From assembly GCF_055900595.2 (NCBI RefSeq), contig NZ_CM148325.1: a DNA stretch of 64,000 bases; one strand, given 5' to 3'. Below the pieces are notes generated by a model that ran no database searches, was not told the DNA's origin, and worked only from the letters and a program-made list of their open reading frames with translations. Below are positions 34,105 to 38,623 of this stretch, in pieces (position 1 is the stretch's first letter; every line of letters starts with the position of its first letter). The translations under genes and the position numbers were made by a program.

Positions 34105-35248
34105 GTGACTCTGTTCATAGTTATCGTCGGCGCCGGATACAGCATCTACCCTGCTCAGGGCAGACGCTATGGCTTGTATTTTCCGTCCGCCACTGGTACT
34201 GCCGTAACCCGGCTTGTTCACGTAAAATTTTTGCCGGGTCGCTTGCCCCCTTCGCCGGTTCACTCCCAGCATTCTTCACAGGTGTTACAAAATTTACAAC
34301 ATCAACTGGGATTAATAGCCGGAGGTGAGGCCGGGAAACAGGCAGCAACGGCAGTGGGGCTCCGTTGCAGTGCTGATACTCTTCTTCGCAGGGTTATTAA
34401 TACCCCGGAGACGAAACAGTCGGGCGCGCCTCATGTCGGTATTGATGAGTGGGCGTGGCATCGGGGCCACCATTACGGCACGTTAATCGTCAATCTTGAT
34501 ACTCACCGTCCCCTCGTCCTGCTTCCCGGTTGCGATCAGAGTACGCTGGCGACCTGGTTCAGAAAATATCCGGAAATACAGGTTGTCTCACGTGACCGTG
34601 GCGGAGTCTATGCGACAGCAGCACGTGAAGGTGCACCTCAGGCCAGACAGATAGCTGATCGATGGCACCTGCTAAAAAATATTGGCGATGCGCCTGAACG
34701 AATGATGTACAGACAGATGCCTCTGATACGTCTTGTTGCCAGTGGGTTGTCACCAAAGAAATCACCTAAGCCAGTACTGTCTGTGCCTGTAGCATCGCTC
34801 CGTCGTCCGGAACGCCTTAAACAGCAAACCCGCCAAAAACGGCATCAGCGTTGGACAGAGGTTATGGCACTACATAACAAGGGATGTGGGTTCAGGGGAA
34901 ATATCCCGTATTACAGGCTTATCCCGTATTACAGGCTTATCACGTGTGACAGTCAGTCTCTGGGTGTGTTCAGGAACATTCCCTGAAATGTCAACCCGGC
35001 CTCCAGAGCGAGGACTTCTGGACCCATGGAGGGAGTGGTTAAAAGAGCAACGAGAAAGTGGTAACTTCGGCGCGTGGCTGCAAGGATGGCAGCTGATGCT
35101 GCGGCTATATGTGAGGCAATCAGCAGTCGCTGGAATAATGGGGGGTGTCGAAAGTCATGTAAATTGGCTAAAAATGCTGAAAGGCCAGATGTATGGTCGA
35201 GCCGGATTTGAACTACTCAGGCAGAGGGTCATGAGTCCACTGGCATGA
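34105..35248 (+). pseudogene. ISL3-family-like transposase remnant (frameshifted, lacks N-terminus)
   Basis: GIDEWAWHRGHHYGTLIVNLD...VSRDRGGVYATAAREGAPQARQIADRWHLLKNI fits the ISL3 DDE pattern; reading frame breaks near 34900; IS1 end abuts at 33981. Confidence 0.4.
34903..34938 (+). repeat. Perfect 18-bp tandem duplication (atcccgtattacaggctt x2) inside the ISL3-like remnant
   Basis: Read directly; encodes the duplicated ISRITGLSRITGLSR. Confidence 0.8.
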
Positions 35249-35271
35249 AAATCTCCATCCAGGTTGCGGAA

Positions 35272-35297
35272 GAGCCACTTTTCATCCGTCGTTGACA
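35272..35297. repeat. Solo IS21-type terminal inverted-repeat copy (gagccacttttcatccgtcgttgaca)
   Basis: 22 of 26 nt identical to the IS21 right end at 33549..33574; no adjacent ist genes. Confidence 0.5.
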
Positions 35298-36083
35298 GCT
35301 TGGGGGGTAGTGCATCTGTACCTCTAGGTCAAAGGAGGTATTCATATCCATATTAACGACTTGAATATGTTGACAGTACTGATTCAGATTAACGAAAAAC
35401 GACCGAGCTTCTCTACTACGCACCTCACCTATCCAGAGGATTGATGAGTATCCGCATCGGCTACGACGGTGCGTAACGATGAGCTTTGAACAGGGCAAAC
35501 TCTTTCATGACCCGGCCTTGGCAGTACATCAATCAGACCCTGTGACCTCTATTTGCAACTGACGTTTGTCGATAGTATTGATGATATGCTAGTGCAGGGT
35601 AAGAAATTACGAAATATGTTTAATCGGCAAGATTTTGAGTAACGCCTCAACATGCTCAATGAGTCATGTGGTCTGATGAGCATAAGGCTTTAGCCAGCTG
35701 ATATAATCCCGAACTATGCCGTAGTTAGGGCAAAGAATGCGGTAGACGGGTAGGCGTAACTGAACTGGAAATACCAGTATTGTTCATTACGATAAGGTGC
35801 GAAGTGAAGCATCGTGAACGGCTTTAGCCTGTTTGCCACAAGAGTAATGACCGTTTTCAATCGGTTTTAGGTGGATGATGAGGGGGATTTTACTCAGTAG
35901 GGACGACGTCAAAGCCTATCCAGAGATAAATGGAAAAGATAGTATTCGAAATTGAGAACGGTTGGGGTTGGTTATCGTTCTGTTTTAGCAACTAAACAAT
36001 AACTCCCCAACCGTTATCATTTCCAGCCCACGATAATCTGCAATGAACATTAAAAATTCACGGCGGCGGTCGCTTTCCTTAAT

Positions 36084-37046
36084 TTACGTCTCCTCTTGGG
36101 AGTGGATAATATGGGTGCCTGTTTCGCCACGCAGTGCCGCGGACAGGCATTCAGGCGTGGTGATAATCACTCTTTTACCTCCACGTTCCAGGAACTCCAG
36201 ACTGGCAAGAATCTTCGGTAACATACTCCCAGGCGGGAAGTGACCCTCCTGCATGTAACGGGCCATCGTTAGGACATCCACTGTATCCAGTGCATGCTGG
36301 TTGGGTTTCCCAAAATGAATACTCACTTTTTCCACGCCGGTGGTGATCACCAGAATGTCGGCGTGAATTTCGCGAGCCAGTAGCGCGCTAGAGAGATCTT
36401 TGTCGATAACCGCGTCCACGCTTTGGTAATCCCCTGCGTCAGTACGCACCACCGGAATGCCACCGCCGCCCGCGCCAATCACCACAAAGCCTTGCTGGAT
36501 CAGAGTCTTAATGGCAGGTGCTTCGACAATACGTTTCGGTTCCGGCGAGGCGACCACGCGGCGATAGCCCCGTCCGGCATCTTCAACAAAACGCCAGTCA
36601 GGGTTTGCCTTTTGTAGTTCATCACGCTGGTTTTCACTAAAGAATGCACCGATGGGCTTGGTGGGATGGACAAACCCCGGATCGTTTTTATCCACTTCCA
36701 CCTGAGTCACCACGGTGACGGCTTTTTTCTCGCCGTGAGGCGCCAGCCGGTTGTTCAGCGCCTGCTGGATCAGATAGCCAATGCCGCCTTGCGTATCCGC
36801 CACACAGTTCGCCAGCGGCGTTAAGGGTAGCCCTTCGCGCTCGTGGGCTATCTCCGCGCGGCGTAAATCCAGACCGACCTGCGGCCCGTTGCCGTGGGTC
36901 AGCACAATGTCGTAATCGGAAGCCAGCATTTCCAGAACCGTATCGGCGACGGCCTTCACCGCCTCCGCCTGATGCTCAATCGACTGGCTGGCGTTATCTT
37001 TGATAATGCTGTTGCCACCAATGGCAACGACCACAAGTTCTTTCAT
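36084..37046 (-). CDS. Carbamate kinase-like protein (ArcC/YahI/YqeA family)
   Basis: MKELVVVAIGGNSI...THGNGPQVG amino-acid kinase fold. Confidence 0.85.
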   Translation of the reverse strand: MKELVVVAIGGNSIIKDNASQSIEHQAEAVKAVADTVLEMLASDYDIVLTHGNGPQVGLDLRRAEIAHEREGLPLTPLANCVADTQGGIGYLIQQALNNRLAPHGEKKAVTVVTQVEVDKNDPGFVHPTKPIGAFFSENQRDELQKANPDWRFVEDAGRGYRRVVASPEPKRIVEAPAIKTLIQQGFVVIGAGGGGIPVVRTDAGDYQSVDAVIDKDLSSALLAREIHADILVITTGVEKVSIHFGKPNQHALDTVDVLTMARYMQEGHFPPGSMLPKILASLEFLERGGKRVIITTPECLSAALRGETGTHIIHSQEET

Positions 37047-37072: not shown

Positions 37073-38623
37073 TCAGGTCGTTTTAGTCTCTTCCTGCTCA
37101 GACGCAGCCACTGTTTCACGGCTATCAATAACATGCTTGAGGGCAAACATAGCAAGCATCATCAGGTAGGCCACAACAAACACAATCGAGCTGCCTTCCG
37201 CAAAGCCAACCGCTGGGGAGTGAATCACGCCAAACAGCGATAACAGTGCTCCAAAGGATGCAGCTATCGCCCCGCGCAGCGGCTTATTCATAATGGCAAA
37301 GATAGCAATGCATCCCCACAGCATGCTGGCCAGCGGTGCACCGCTTCCCAGATGCATCAGTCCATCGTAATAGACGCCTTTGCTGTGCAACAGGTCGCTA
37401 CCAAGTTTCTCAGCGGATGTTCCGGCTGCGCCCATCACGCTGTTAACGATGGTCAATGCCCAGTTGGCGACCCATGGGAACAGACAGATGAAAATGACGG
37501 GAACCTCGACTTTAGGAGTTTCTCGCACCACCTGATTGGCGGTTACCACACCGATAAAAACCAGAATTGGCACTATAGCAGTCATGGGAATAATGGCGAG
37601 CATAAACGCGCCCAACCCAAACAATGGCACCAGAAACATAGTGATGCCTGATGCGAGGGTATAGCAGATACTAGCGCCCATAGCTTTCCAGCCTGCATGC
37701 CCAACATATACGGTTACCGGGAACGGATTACCCAGCATGCAACCGAGCATGGAGGCAAAGCCGTTCGCCATCATGACCTTACGGGTGTTGTATTCATCAC
37801 CAGCCGCGTGCGCACTTTCAATGTTCTCGAGGTCAAAAATGTAGTTAGCCAGGCCCAAAGGAACTGCAGAAGCCAGATATGGCAGAGCGTGCGGCAAACC
37901 TTGCAGGAAGCTCCTTACATGAATTTCCGGCGGGTTGAAGCCGAAGGAAGACATCGACGCTTTAATGTCTTCCGGGCTTTGTAAACCGGATATCCACGCT
38001 AGGGACGTACCAGCAATCAGCAACAGCAAACCGGTAGGAATATGGGGAAAAATCGGCTTCTTACCGAACCAGTTAATGAAGATCAATAACAGGACGATGA
38101 AAGAAACTGTCGGCGCTTCGAACGCTTGCAGCATCGGGTTCATTGCCAGCAGTAATAACCCCAGTCCGGACAGACAAGAAAGCAGCACTGTACGCGGGAT
38201 CATCTTGCGGATAGTCTCACCCAGGAAGGAGCCACCGACCAGGATCAACGCTTCGACAAAGCACCACACCAATCCTATCTGAATAGCAAAGTTGGCATCT
38301 TTGGTTTGCTGATAAACCGGCATCAGCACCAGGAATGTCACGGTAAAGATTGAGGGTGCGCTCGGTCCAGACGGCAGCGCCGTTACATCGCTACGACCGG
38401 TTTTCTTCACCATCTGTAGACCAAACCAGGAGTAGCAGACACTGGCCGCCAGCACTGCAAGACCAAAGGCAGGCGCAATGCGTCCATAGACAATTTCAGT
38501 AGGGATTCCGACGACAAAAATTAGCAGACCCATCATTGTCAGCAGGTTAGTCAGATTGTTGGTCATCAGTCCAAAGTAAGCCGCCCAGTCACCACGTTTC
38601 CATTCTAGTTTTATGCTGTTCAT
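37073..38623 (-). CDS. Polytopic membrane transporter, possibly an NCS2/AzgA-like nucleobase-type permease
   Basis: 516 aa with about 12 predicted TM segments between the DUF1116 and carbamate kinase genes; family call is tentative. Confidence 0.6.
   Translation of the reverse strand: MNSIKLEWKRGDWAAYFGLMTNNLTNLLTMMGLLIFVVGIPTEIVYGRIAPAFGLAVLAASVCYSWFGLQMVKKTGRSDVTALPSGPSAPSIFTVTFLVLMPVYQQTKDANFAIQIGLVWCFVEALILVGGSFLGETIRKMIPRTVLLSCLSGLGLLLLAMNPMLQAFEAPTVSFIVLLLIFINWFGKKPIFPHIPTGLLLLIAGTSLAWISGLQSPEDIKASMSSFGFNPPEIHVRSFLQGLPHALPYLASAVPLGLANYIFDLENIESAHAAGDEYNTRKVMMANGFASMLGCMLGNPFPVTVYVGHAGWKAMGASICYTLASGITMFLVPLFGLGAFMLAIIPMTAIVPILVFIGVVTANQVVRETPKVEVPVIFICLFPWVANWALTIVNSVMGAAGTSAEKLGSDLLHSKGVYYDGLMHLGSGAPLASMLWGCIAIFAIMNKPLRGAIAASFGALLSLFGVIHSPAVGFAEGSSIVFVVAYLMMLAMFALKHVIDSRETVAASEQEETKTT

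What the first reader, a model, noticed from the sequence alone, without database searches (positions are those of the whole stretch)
35300..36083. ORF-poor 780-bp interval downstream of the carbamate kinase gene with a long inverted repeat
Between the IS21-type solo IR (35272..35297) and the carbamate kinase stop there is no ORF of 60 aa or more. The interval contains perfect 11-bp arms aacggttgggg / ccccaaccgtt (35957..35967 and 36005..36015) separated by 37 nt. In homologous operons a deaminase-type gene would be expected after the kinase (from memory of the yah locus), so this may be a decayed gene, an IS-mediated deletion scar, or a structured RNA.
Basis: inference. Interest (0 to 1): 0.3.

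Follow-up and report, generated by a model that had tools for sequence, protein, structure and literature searches.

The report
Dead ISL3 insertion sequence with leader hairpin
The "empty" 780 bp after the carbamate kinase gene is the decayed front half of an ISL3-family insertion sequence that cut off the neighbouring yahJ gene, and its inverted repeat is a hairpin conserved just before the transposase start codon in this group of elements.

Summary
The window is an E. coli ColV/APEC-type IncF plasmid region. The 11-bp inverted repeat is real and sits exactly where reported.

**What the interval is**
- 35298..36049 (minus strand) is 82% identical in DNA to the first ~750 bp of an intact 1.3-kb ISL3-family insertion sequence on a Shewanella plasmid. 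That stretch covers the left terminal repeat, the leader and transposase codons 1-222.
- The copy is dead. Its start codon is ATT, it carries several stops and frameshifts, and it is cut off at 35297/35298 by a 21-nt IS100 end fragment.
- 36050..36083 is the first 11 codons of yahJ, the amidohydrolase gene that follows yahI in the E. coli core chromosome. The insertion sequence truncated it.

**What the inverted repeat is**
- It forms the outer stem of a 56-77 nt hairpin found in all 60 distinct relatives examined.
- The hairpin ends 0-5 nt before the start codon.
- It covaries: 10 of 11 pairs show compensatory changes.
- It matches no Rfam family.

**How it probably works (inferred only)**
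I propose an IS10-like control module. The hairpin would occlude the start codon in read-through transcripts, and it would also form the body of an outward antisense RNA. A promoter-like motif for that RNA is conserved in 59 of 60 relatives.

In this window the element is a non-functional relic. The locus itself is ordinary.

The parts
36084..37046 (-). Carbamate kinase gene (yahI paralogue). Context: last intact gene of the yah-like cluster.
   Evidence: 320-aa ORF. Pfam AA_kinase, E = 2e-24. 93% aa identity to K-12 YahI. Annotated as carbamate kinase family protein in identical plasmids.
36050..36083 (-). Stub of yahJ (amidohydrolase): 11 codons, IKESDRRREFL, with the ATG position reading ATT. 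The gene is cut off by the IS end.
   Evidence: Core-chromosome yahI-yahJ loci align at 85-88% right up to about 36054. Pairwise alignment with K-12. tblastn finds YahJ residues 1-11 at 36083..36051 and no other yahJ remnant in the window.
35298..36049 (-). Relic of an ISL3-family insertion sequence: left end, leader and transposase codons 1-222. It is 3'-truncated and decayed.
   Evidence: 82.4% nt identity to the intact IS on Shewanella putrefaciens pSA70-3. tblastn E = 1.6e-70 with in-frame stops and frameshifts. The Shewanella protein carries DDE_Tnp_ISL3, HTH_Tnp_ISL3 and NF033550.
36027..36049 (-). Left terminal inverted repeat (IRL) of the relic: TGTTCATTGCAGATTATCGTGGG. The family consensus starts GGTTC(A/T)TCGC.
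   Evidence: Aligns with the terminal repeat of the Shewanella IS, whose two ends are 80% complementary over 25 nt. The same terminus appears in dozens of relatives.
35948..36024 (-). Leader hairpin. There is also a 10-bp inner stem and an apical loop. The hairpin abuts the degenerate start codon.
   Evidence: Folding. Covariance-model match at 35950..36018 (-), 47 bits, E = 1.7e-8. The homologous hairpin is present in 60/60 relatives. Covariation.
35298..35952 (-). Transposase pseudogene. The start codon ATG is ATT at 35950..35952. It encodes residues 1-222 of about 397, with several stops and frameshifts.
35277..35297 (+). 21-nt fragment of the IS100 (IS21 family) right end, marking the break that truncates the ISL3 relic.
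   Evidence: Identical to 33554..33574, the end of the complete IS100. Zero matches expected by chance.
35917..35945 (+). Candidate, degenerate antisense promoter of the IS (TATCCA-N17-TAGTAT) reading outward through the hairpin. Inferred only.
   Evidence: The homologous motif TTCCCA/TGGCCA-N17-TAnnnT is present in 59/60 relatives at the same position. It was not picked up by the consensus promoter scan.
35996..36001 (-). Conserved -10-like hexamer TATTGT in the 5' half of the hairpin. It is a candidate transposase promoter element. Inferred, weak.
   Evidence: TAnnnT lies 44-52 nt upstream of the start codon in 57/60 relatives (58 with one at 58 nt), but the -35 is poorly conserved.

Best explanation
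SHOWN. The interval is not an intergenic region of the kinase operon. An ISL3-family insertion sequence, in the same orientation as the operon, inserted into codon 12 of yahJ, 34 nt after the kinase stop. IS100 later broke it at transposase codon 222, and further insertion sequences piled up to the left. What remains is the left terminal repeat, the leader and a transposase pseudogene. The inverted repeat is the outer stem of the leader hairpin that this IS group carries between its left terminal repeat and the transposase start codon.

INFERRED from sequence conservation only. In live copies the hairpin works as an IS10-like control module in two ways. (a) Transcripts that read into the IS from outside contain both arms. 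The stem then buries the start codon and the 20 nt before it, which lack any Shine-Dalgarno sequence, so transposase is not made from host read-through. (b) A conserved outward promoter in transposase codons 2-12 would start an antisense RNA at the start codon. That RNA would consist of the same hairpin, followed by a U-tract in about half of the subgroups, and would pair with the transposase mRNA. The element's own mRNA may start in the apical loop, downstream of a conserved TAnnnT, and so lack the 5' arm. In this window the module is a fossil with nothing left to regulate.
For: IS identity:
- 82% nt identity over 35298..36051 to an intact 1298-bp IS with 25-nt terminal repeats.
- tblastn E = 1.6e-70 to its transposase, residues 26-222.
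- ISL3 Pfam and NCBIfam domains in the Shewanella homologue.
- IS100 end fragment at the break.
- NCBI annotates a transposase pseudogene here.

yahJ truncation.

Hairpin conservation in 60 distinct leaders from plasmids and genomes of many genera:
- All fold into one hairpin of 56-77 nt with 19-27 bp, mean z = -4.2, ending 0-5 nt (median 1) before the start codon.
- Arms pair with their own partner at 8.1 of 9 positions against 3.8 of 9 with other members' arms; 0 of 2000 shuffles reach this.
- On a covariance-model alignment, 90.5% of cells are paired, 10 of 11 pairs have compensatory changes, and the covariation score is 0.524 against 0.223 for shuffles and 0.17 or less for slid partners.

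Occlusion: there is no Shine-Dalgarno sequence in -20..-1 (median duplex energy +0.7 kcal/mol).

Antisense promoter:
- A -35-like hexamer (TTCCCA x39, TGGCCA x9 and others), exactly 17 nt, then TAnnnT in 59/60 leaders. The -10 ends at sense +4 or +7.
- The codons involved keep A/T bases even where the amino acids differ and the hosts are GC-rich.

Other support:
- Both strands fold, and G:T against A:C mismatches are balanced at 23:22.
- 26 of 60 leaders have at least 5 T in the 8 nt after the stem on the antisense strand.
- IS1411, an ISL3 member, is reported to carry outward-directed promoters at its left end (PMC3485313).
Against: - There is no transcript or reporter data. Every regulatory step is read from sequence.
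- The antisense -35 and its 17-nt spacing overlap the conserved FWEG codons, so protein constraint could explain part of that conservation.
- The proposed sense promoter has only a conserved -10-like hexamer. Its -35 is weak (5-8 of 12 matches).
- The Pseudomonas and Alcanivorax subgroups have no U-tract after the antisense hairpin.
- Many leaders have Shine-Dalgarno-like purine runs just 5' of the stem (median -6.3 kcal/mol), which fits an activating role instead.
- The covariation alignment was fitted to the structure and includes reverse-strand matches.
- I did not check whether IS1411 shares this leader.
Confidence: 0.6

Rival explanations
1. The hairpin activates rather than represses. 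It folds out about 65 nt of spacer so that a Shine-Dalgarno-like purine run just 5' of the stem is brought next to the start codon, as reported for phage T4 genes 38 and 25 (from memory).
For: There is no Shine-Dalgarno sequence in the normal position, but SD-like motifs occur within 0-9 nt of the 5' stem base in many subgroups. Examples are GTAGGAGACGGCGG in the Marinobacter group and GAGGGGGTG in L118. The median duplex energy is -6.3 kcal/mol there against +0.7 kcal/mol at -20..-1. The stem ends 0-5 nt from the start codon. This model would also let a promoter formed at a circle junction drive translation.
Against: The window, Shewanella and Vibrio subgroup has only GGA/GGGA, and it lies 2-15 nt from the stem. 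Part of the purine run is the inner end of the terminal repeat, which is conserved for another reason. The model does not explain the conserved antisense promoter motif or the antisense U-tracts.
Confidence: 0.2
2. The inverted repeat acts at the DNA level, as a subterminal binding site or cruciform for transposase or a host factor during synapsis or circle formation, and not as RNA.
For: It lies at a fixed distance of about 25-35 nt inside the left terminal repeat in all relatives. G:T against A:C mismatches show no strand bias (23:22), as expected if neither RNA strand is the selected one. The loop carries a conserved sequence, (G)TCGCCAAA(C/A)A.
Against: No matching element was seen at the right end. 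In the Shewanella copy the transposase stop lies within the right terminal repeat region. Compensatory changes over 19-27 bp with bulges and internal loops are typical of RNA folding. The tight coupling to the start codon (0-5 nt) is unexplained by a DNA site.
Confidence: 0.12
3. The interval is a decayed yahJ-type deaminase gene or another operon gene, with the hairpin as the operon's terminator or an independent small RNA or riboswitch.
For: yahJ does follow yahI in the core locus, and its first 11 codons are present.
Against: Beyond codon 11 there is no YahJ similarity anywhere in the window. All of 35298..36049 is accounted for by ISL3 homology. On the operon strand the hairpin is followed by CUCAAUUUCG, which is not a U-tract, and the terminator scan finds nothing there. 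No Rfam family matches the window or six intact copies.
Confidence: 0.03

Closest known systems
Unnamed ISL3-family IS of Shewanella (S. putrefaciens pSA70-3, CP078040.1 101369..102666; 99% aa copy in S. insulae)
   Same: 82% nt identity over the left 750 bp. It has the same terminal repeat, the same hairpin (outer arms differ at one base) and the same transposase N-terminal half.
   Different: The Shewanella copy is intact: 1298 bp, a 397-aa ORF and both terminal repeats. The window copy has ATT for ATG, stops, frameshifts and a mutated loop motif (TTGCTAAAAC instead of TCGCCAAAC), and it lacks everything after codon 222.
ISAeme19 and ISPst9-like ISL3 elements of Aeromonas, Klebsiella, Pseudomonas and Stutzerimonas (ISAeme19 is the name in NCBI annotation of L013; ISPst9 is recalled from memory and was not seen in any tool output)
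   Same: Same family (56-60% aa identity to the Shewanella transposase). Same GGTTC(A/T)TCGC terminus. A leader hairpin of the same size and position, with the same loop motif GTCGCCAAACA.
   Different: The stem sequences are completely different (GACAGxCAGGG / CCCTGCTGTC). GTG starts are common. The antisense -35 is TGGCCA, and there is no U-tract after the antisense hairpin.
IS10/Tn10 RNA-IN / RNA-OUT and fold-back inhibition (established knowledge; compare PMC5006887)
   Same: An inverted repeat next to the transposase start at the outer end of the IS. A proposed outward antisense promoter inside the first codons. An antisense RNA that is a long imperfect stem-loop. Read-through transcripts predicted to fold back over the initiation region.
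   Different: It belongs to a different IS family (IS4) and shares no sequence similarity. Nothing here is experimentally shown. Here the mRNA leader has no Shine-Dalgarno sequence at all.
IS200 tnpA 5'UTR stem-loop plus art200 antisense RNA (PMC4513863); ISPpu9 5'UTR structure plus small RNAs (PMC8450116)
   Same: Transposase translation is suppressed by a 5'UTR hairpin that sequesters the initiation region, combined with a cis-encoded antisense RNA.
   Different: These are unrelated IS families with unrelated sequences. Their mechanisms are demonstrated by experiment.
E. coli core yah locus (yahD-E-F-G-I-J)
   Same: The plasmid and island cluster is a paralogue. Its kinase is 93% identical in aa to YahI, and the yahI-yahJ junction is retained.
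   Different: yahJ is cut after 11 codons. An extra 516-aa ORF without any family hit lies between the yahG-like and yahI-like genes.

Membership tests
ISL3-family insertion sequence | Encodes a DDE transposase of the ISL3 type | tested here: met
   tblastn of the Shewanella transposase (Pfam DDE_Tnp_ISL3 2e-69, HTH_Tnp_ISL3; NCBIfam NF033550 1.4e-97) hits 35882..35298 at E = 1.6e-70, covering residues 26-222. The gene is only a pseudogene fragment.
ISL3-family insertion sequence | Terminal inverted repeats at both ends | tested here: inconclusive
   The left repeat is present at 36027..36049 and is homologous to the Shewanella terminus and the family consensus GGTTC(A/T)TCGC, with 2-3 substitutions. 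The right end is missing because the element is truncated at 35297/35298.
ISL3-family insertion sequence | 8-bp direct target duplication | not testable with these tools
   The right end of the element and its flank are gone. Every E. coli record examined in detail shows the same ISL3-truncated arrangement; a minority of records match only part of the interval and were not examined.
ISL3-family insertion sequence | Intact, potentially mobile element | tested here: not met
   The start codon is ATT. There are at least 6 in-frame stops, several frameshifts and a 3' truncation.
IS10-type antisense / fold-back control | Stable stem-loop overlapping the transposase translation start | tested here: met
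   Hairpin present in 60/60 leaders, ending 0-5 nt from the start codon. Covariation supports pairing.
IS10-type antisense / fold-back control | Outward promoter producing an antisense RNA | tested here: inconclusive
   A conserved -35-like hexamer, 17 nt and TAnnnT occur in 59/60 leaders, but part of the motif is constrained by coding and there are no transcript data. Outward promoters are reported for IS1411 (PMC3485313), but I did not check its sequence.
IS10-type antisense / fold-back control | Element's own mRNA starts inside the repeat and so lacks the 5' arm | tested here: inconclusive
   TAnnnT lies 44-52 nt upstream of the start in 57/60 leaders, but the -35 is weak. No 5'-end data.
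Any Rfam RNA family | Covariance-model match at or near the gathering score | tested here: not met
   In the window the best match is mir-3613 at 21.5 bits against a gathering score of 91. Six intact IS copies give nothing relevant.
Intrinsic terminator of the kinase operon | GC-rich stem with a short loop followed by a U-tract on the operon (minus) strand | tested here: not met
   The loop and inner structure span 37 nt. The tail is CUCAAUUUCG. The scan finds no terminator there.
yahJ amidohydrolase gene | Full-length coding sequence after yahI | tested here: not met
   Only residues 1-11 remain (36083..36051). There is no other YahJ similarity in the 64 kb.

The most novel reading that the evidence does not exclude
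The hairpin is the core of an undescribed two-way control module shared by a large proteobacterial subgroup of ISL3 elements (Shewanella, Vibrio, Enterobacterales, Marinobacter, Pseudomonas, Aeromonas, Alcanivorax, even Lentisphaera). In this reading an outward promoter hidden in transposase codons 2-12 makes an antisense RNA of about 70-80 nt that is the hairpin itself. The same repeat blocks translation of host read-through transcripts. That would be a convergent re-invention of the IS10 RNA-IN/RNA-OUT logic in an unrelated IS family, and a candidate new Rfam family.
Probability: 0.4. Interest if true: 0.45.

Novelty: new member of a known kind. Interest (0 to 1): 0.3.

Why it matters
For this locus the gain is annotation. 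The gap after the kinase gene on ColV/APEC plasmids and related chromosomal islands is explained as an IS relic plus an 11-codon yahJ stub. This shows that the mobile copy of the yah cluster has lost its amidohydrolase.

[quoted passage not shown] ISL3 members such as ISAeme19 are reported in studies of resistance plasmids and polymyxin resistance. A conserved, covarying leader hairpin with a linked antisense promoter motif gives a concrete hypothesis that can be tested cheaply. It is also a ready seed alignment for an RNA family.

Tried and rejected
- **Rfam scans.** Scans of the window interval and of six intact IS copies found no family.
- **Exact-pattern scan of viral contigs** for terminal repeat plus loop motif. 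It gave 97 hits, but only 2 had a transposase downstream. The rest are chance matches, as expected for 17 specified bases in a collection of that size. I therefore did not run the same pattern on metagenomes.
- **Protein-based scan of viral contigs.** It yielded only 8 loci.
- **MAFFT plus RNAalifold on all 60 leaders, and on trimmed hairpins.** No consensus structure emerged, because sequence-only alignment puts the diverged 5' arms in different registers. I solved this with a covariance model seeded on the closest subgroup.
- **Strand assignment from G:U against A:C mismatches.** No asymmetry (23 against 22), so the folded strand could not be decided.
- **Consensus promoter/terminator scan of the interval.** Counts were at shuffle level and it missed the motifs later found by comparison.
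- **Kallastu et al. 1998 (PMC107577).** The paper is not held, so the mapped IS1411 outward promoters could not be compared.
- **Deaminase-remnant hypothesis for the body of the interval.** Rejected.
- **Operon-terminator reading.** Rejected.

Full report
**Source and observation.** The window is identical to IncF ColV/ColBM-type plasmids of avian and extra-intestinal pathogenic E. coli such as p1ColV5155. The same segment also occurs in chromosomal islands at 99.1-99.7% identity. The reported inverted repeat is exactly where stated: 35957..35967 and 36005..36015, 11 perfect base pairs with a 37-nt spacer. Only 1 of 300 shuffles of the interval reaches 11 bp. The region folds strongly on either strand, at -36.8 and -32.1 kcal/mol with z-scores of -8.3 and -6.9. 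The 'IS21-type solo IR' is also real: 35277..35297 is identical to the right end of the complete IS100 at 33554..33574. The statement that no ORF of 60 aa exists is only approximately true, because an 89-aa TTG ORF at 35229..35498 (-) lies mostly inside the interval. That ORF is a piece of the broken gene described next.

**What fills the interval.** A sensitive DNA search against plasmids found one informative non-E. coli hit. Window 35298..36051 is 82.4% identical to Shewanella putrefaciens pSA70-3, across the 5' half of an annotated ISL3-family transposase gene and the sequence upstream of it. That Shewanella element is a complete insertion sequence of 1298 bp. It has 25-nt terminal inverted repeats (AAGGTTCATCGC...) and a 397-aa transposase with the DDE_Tnp_ISL3 and HTH_Tnp_ISL3 domains and NCBIfam NF033550. 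The pairwise alignment and tblastn (E = 1.6e-70, residues 26-222, 63% identity) show that the window copy lies on the minus strand. The ATG position reads ATT (35950..35952). The copy has at least six in-frame stops plus 1-bp and 5-bp indels, and it ends abruptly at residue 222, where the IS100 end fragment begins. NCBI's own annotation of identical plasmids marks part of this stretch (35304..35511) as a frameshifted, partial 'transposase'. To the left lie a second, unrelated ISL3 element on the plus strand (26% aa identity, right repeat ending at 35276), an IS1 fragment and a complete IS100. The area is an IS pile-up.

**What was there before.** The kinase gene and its 3' flank match the core-chromosomal yahI of about 5000 E. 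coli genomes at 85-88% identity, right up to window position ~36054. The feature under the end of that match is yahJ, an amidohydrolase. Aligned with a K-12-derived strain, the 34 nt after the kinase stop read IKESDRRREFL against YahJ's MKESNSRREFL. Homology then stops at the first base of the IS terminal repeat. No other YahJ similarity exists anywhere in the 64 kb. So an ISL3 element inserted into codon 12 of the island's yahJ, and the rest of that gene has been lost. The true 'intergenic' DNA of the operon is essentially nil.

**The inverted repeat belongs to the IS.** In the Shewanella copy the same repeat lies between the left terminal repeat and the transposase ATG, and its 3' arm ends 4 nt before the ATG. 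I collected relatives by tblastn against plasmids (loci), by a protein-pattern scan of viral contigs, and by a scan of one genome per species (80 loci). This gave 60 distinct leaders from Shewanella, Ferrimonas, Aliagarivorans, Vibrio, Photobacterium, Citrobacter, Serratia, Kluyvera, Buttiauxella, Pectobacterium, Marinobacter, Alcanivorax, Pseudomonas/Stutzerimonas, Aeromonas, Sphingobium, Lentisphaera and several MAGs.

Every one of the 60 folds into a single long hairpin:
- It spans 56-77 nt and has 19-27 base pairs.
- The mean z-score is -4.2 against dinucleotide shuffles.
- Its 3' end lies 0-5 nt (median 1) from the start codon.

The stem sequences differ completely between subgroups yet stay complementary:

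| Subgroup | 5' arm | 3' arm |
|---|---|---|
| Window / Shewanella | ACGGTTGGGG | CCCCAACCGT |
| Ferrimonas / Aliagarivorans | ACGGCTGG | CCAGCCGT |
| Vibrio / Citrobacter | ACGGTAGT | ACTACCGT |
| Marinobacter group | GACGGCGGT | ACCGCCGTC |
| Pseudomonas / Aeromonas | GACAGxCAGGG | CCCTGCTGTC |
| Lentisphaera | GTCGTTCTC | GAGAACGAC |
| Alcanivorax | GGCGGACAGTG | CACTGCCGCC |

Arms pair with their own partner at 8.1 of 9 positions, against 3.8 of 9 with other members' arms (0 of 2000 shuffles reach this). Sequence-only alignment failed to give a consensus. I therefore built a covariance model from the closest subgroup and used it to align all loci. It finds the window copy at 35950..36018 (-) with 47 bits. 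On that alignment 90.5% of cells form standard pairs, 10 of 11 pairs show changes on both sides, and the covariation score is 0.524, against 0.223 for shuffles (0 of 500) and 0.17 or less for slid partners. Two caveats apply: the alignment is fitted to the structure, and it contains some reverse-strand matches. The apical loop carries a conserved motif, (G)TCGCCAAA(C/A)A, which is mutated in the window copy. No Rfam family matches the window or six intact copies. Literature searches found nothing on regulation of these elements. One paper states that little is known about IS1411 regulation.

**How it probably works.** The following is inference from conservation.
1. The 20 nt before the start codon contain no Shine-Dalgarno sequence (median predicted duplex energy +0.7 kcal/mol) and lie entirely in the 3' arm. 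Any transcript containing both arms should therefore have its initiation region buried. Here the kinase operon reads into the IS in the transposase direction, which is exactly the situation such a block would guard against.
2. On the opposite strand, 59 of 60 leaders carry a -35-like hexamer (TTCCCA x39, TGGCCA x9, TTTCCA x4 and others), exactly 17 nt, then TAnnnT. The -10 ends at sense position +4 or +7, so transcription would start at about the start codon and run outward through the hairpin. The -35 overlaps the conserved FWEG codons. The -10 lies in codons whose amino acids vary (N-A-N, D-A-T, H-P-I, N-I-T) while the A/T bases are kept, even in GC-rich hosts.
3. In 26 of 60 leaders the hairpin is followed on that strand by at least 5 T in 8 nt, which is terminator-like. 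The Pseudomonas and Alcanivorax groups lack this.
4. Mismatches inside the stems show no G:U over A:C bias (23 against 22). This is what one expects if both strands must fold.
5. A TAnnnT hexamer lies 44-52 nt upstream of the start codon in 57 of 60 leaders, 0-7 nt before the apical loop. This suggests that the element's own mRNA starts in the loop and lacks the 5' arm. Its -35 is poor, however.
6. IS1411, an ISL3 member, is reported to carry outward-directed promoters at its left end (PMC3485313).

Together these points resemble the IS10 arrangement, in which one inverted repeat serves both as the stem of the antisense RNA-OUT and as the fold-back inhibitor of read-through transcripts. They also resemble the IS200 and ISPpu9 5'UTR controls (PMC5006887, PMC4513863, PMC8450116).

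**Rivals.** The main rival is activation. Many leaders have Shine-Dalgarno-like purine runs right at the 5' base of the stem, so the hairpin could bring SD and AUG together. This fits some subgroups but not the window, Shewanella and Vibrio subgroup, and it leaves the antisense motifs unexplained. A DNA-level binding site cannot be excluded, because the lack of strand bias fits it, but it does not explain the coupling to the start codon. Readings as a decayed deaminase body, an operon terminator or an independent small RNA are rejected.

**Status in this window.** The module is a fossil. The transposase is dead and truncated, the start codon and loop motif are mutated, and the antisense -35 is degraded to TATCCA. 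Both stems happen to be intact. The copies of the interval found in E. coli and Klebsiella plasmids and chromosomes are 99-100% identical apart from one plasmid at 96.4% (NC_007675.1). This says nothing about selection.

**Verdict.** The side result may be worth following up by IS and RNA specialists. It is a conserved, covarying leader hairpin with a linked antisense promoter motif across a wide ISL3 subgroup, absent from Rfam and from the searchable literature.

Noticed in passing
window 37073..38623 (-): A 516-aa ORF between the yahG-like (AllG/DUF1116) gene and the kinase has no Pfam or NCBIfam hit and is annotated as hypothetical. The K-12 yah locus has only a 67-aa hypothetical protein at that position.
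   Followed up: partly
window 33554..35297: IS pile-up. A complete IS100 ends at 33574, an IS1 fragment runs to about 33982, and a second, unrelated ISL3 element on the + strand has a right repeat (...GCGGAAGAGCC) ending at 35276. A 21-nt IS100 right-end fragment follows at 35277..35297. This implies at least three nested insertions and a rearrangement.
   Followed up: partly
loci L129, L134, L135, L141, L192, L117 (about 30 nt before the IS left end): Intact relatives of the relic often sit immediately after a GC-rich hairpin plus T-run, that is, on intrinsic terminators of neighbouring genes. In the window the target was GAATTTTTAA. This suggests a preference for T-rich or terminator targets.
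   Followed up: no
window 36027..36049 and all leaders: The left terminal repeat of this IS group is itself a small palindrome (GGTTCATCGC-N6-GCGTGAACC). It folds as a separate short hairpin in nearly every leader.
   Followed up: no
window 36050..36083 (-); L203 2498..2530: The YahJ N-terminus carries a twin-arginine-like motif (SRREFL), and the stub keeps it (RRREFL). This suggests that YahJ is a Tat-exported amidohydrolase.
   Followed up: no
window 36084..36098 (-): The kinase here is 4 codons longer than K-12 YahI, because the K-12 stop TAA reads CAA. It ends at a TAA that lies directly against the yahJ start position.
   Followed up: no
window ~35719..35730: Some plasmids match only 35719..36083 or only 35278..35730 of the interval. 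This points to a further insertion or recombination breakpoint inside the relic in those records.
   Followed up: no
L015, L016 (Ralstonia, Burkholderia ISL3 copies): Betaproteobacterial relatives (about 51% aa identity) have a different leader. It has an explicit AGGAGG before the start codon and a shorter, different hairpin, so the long hairpin is specific to a subgroup.
   Followed up: partly
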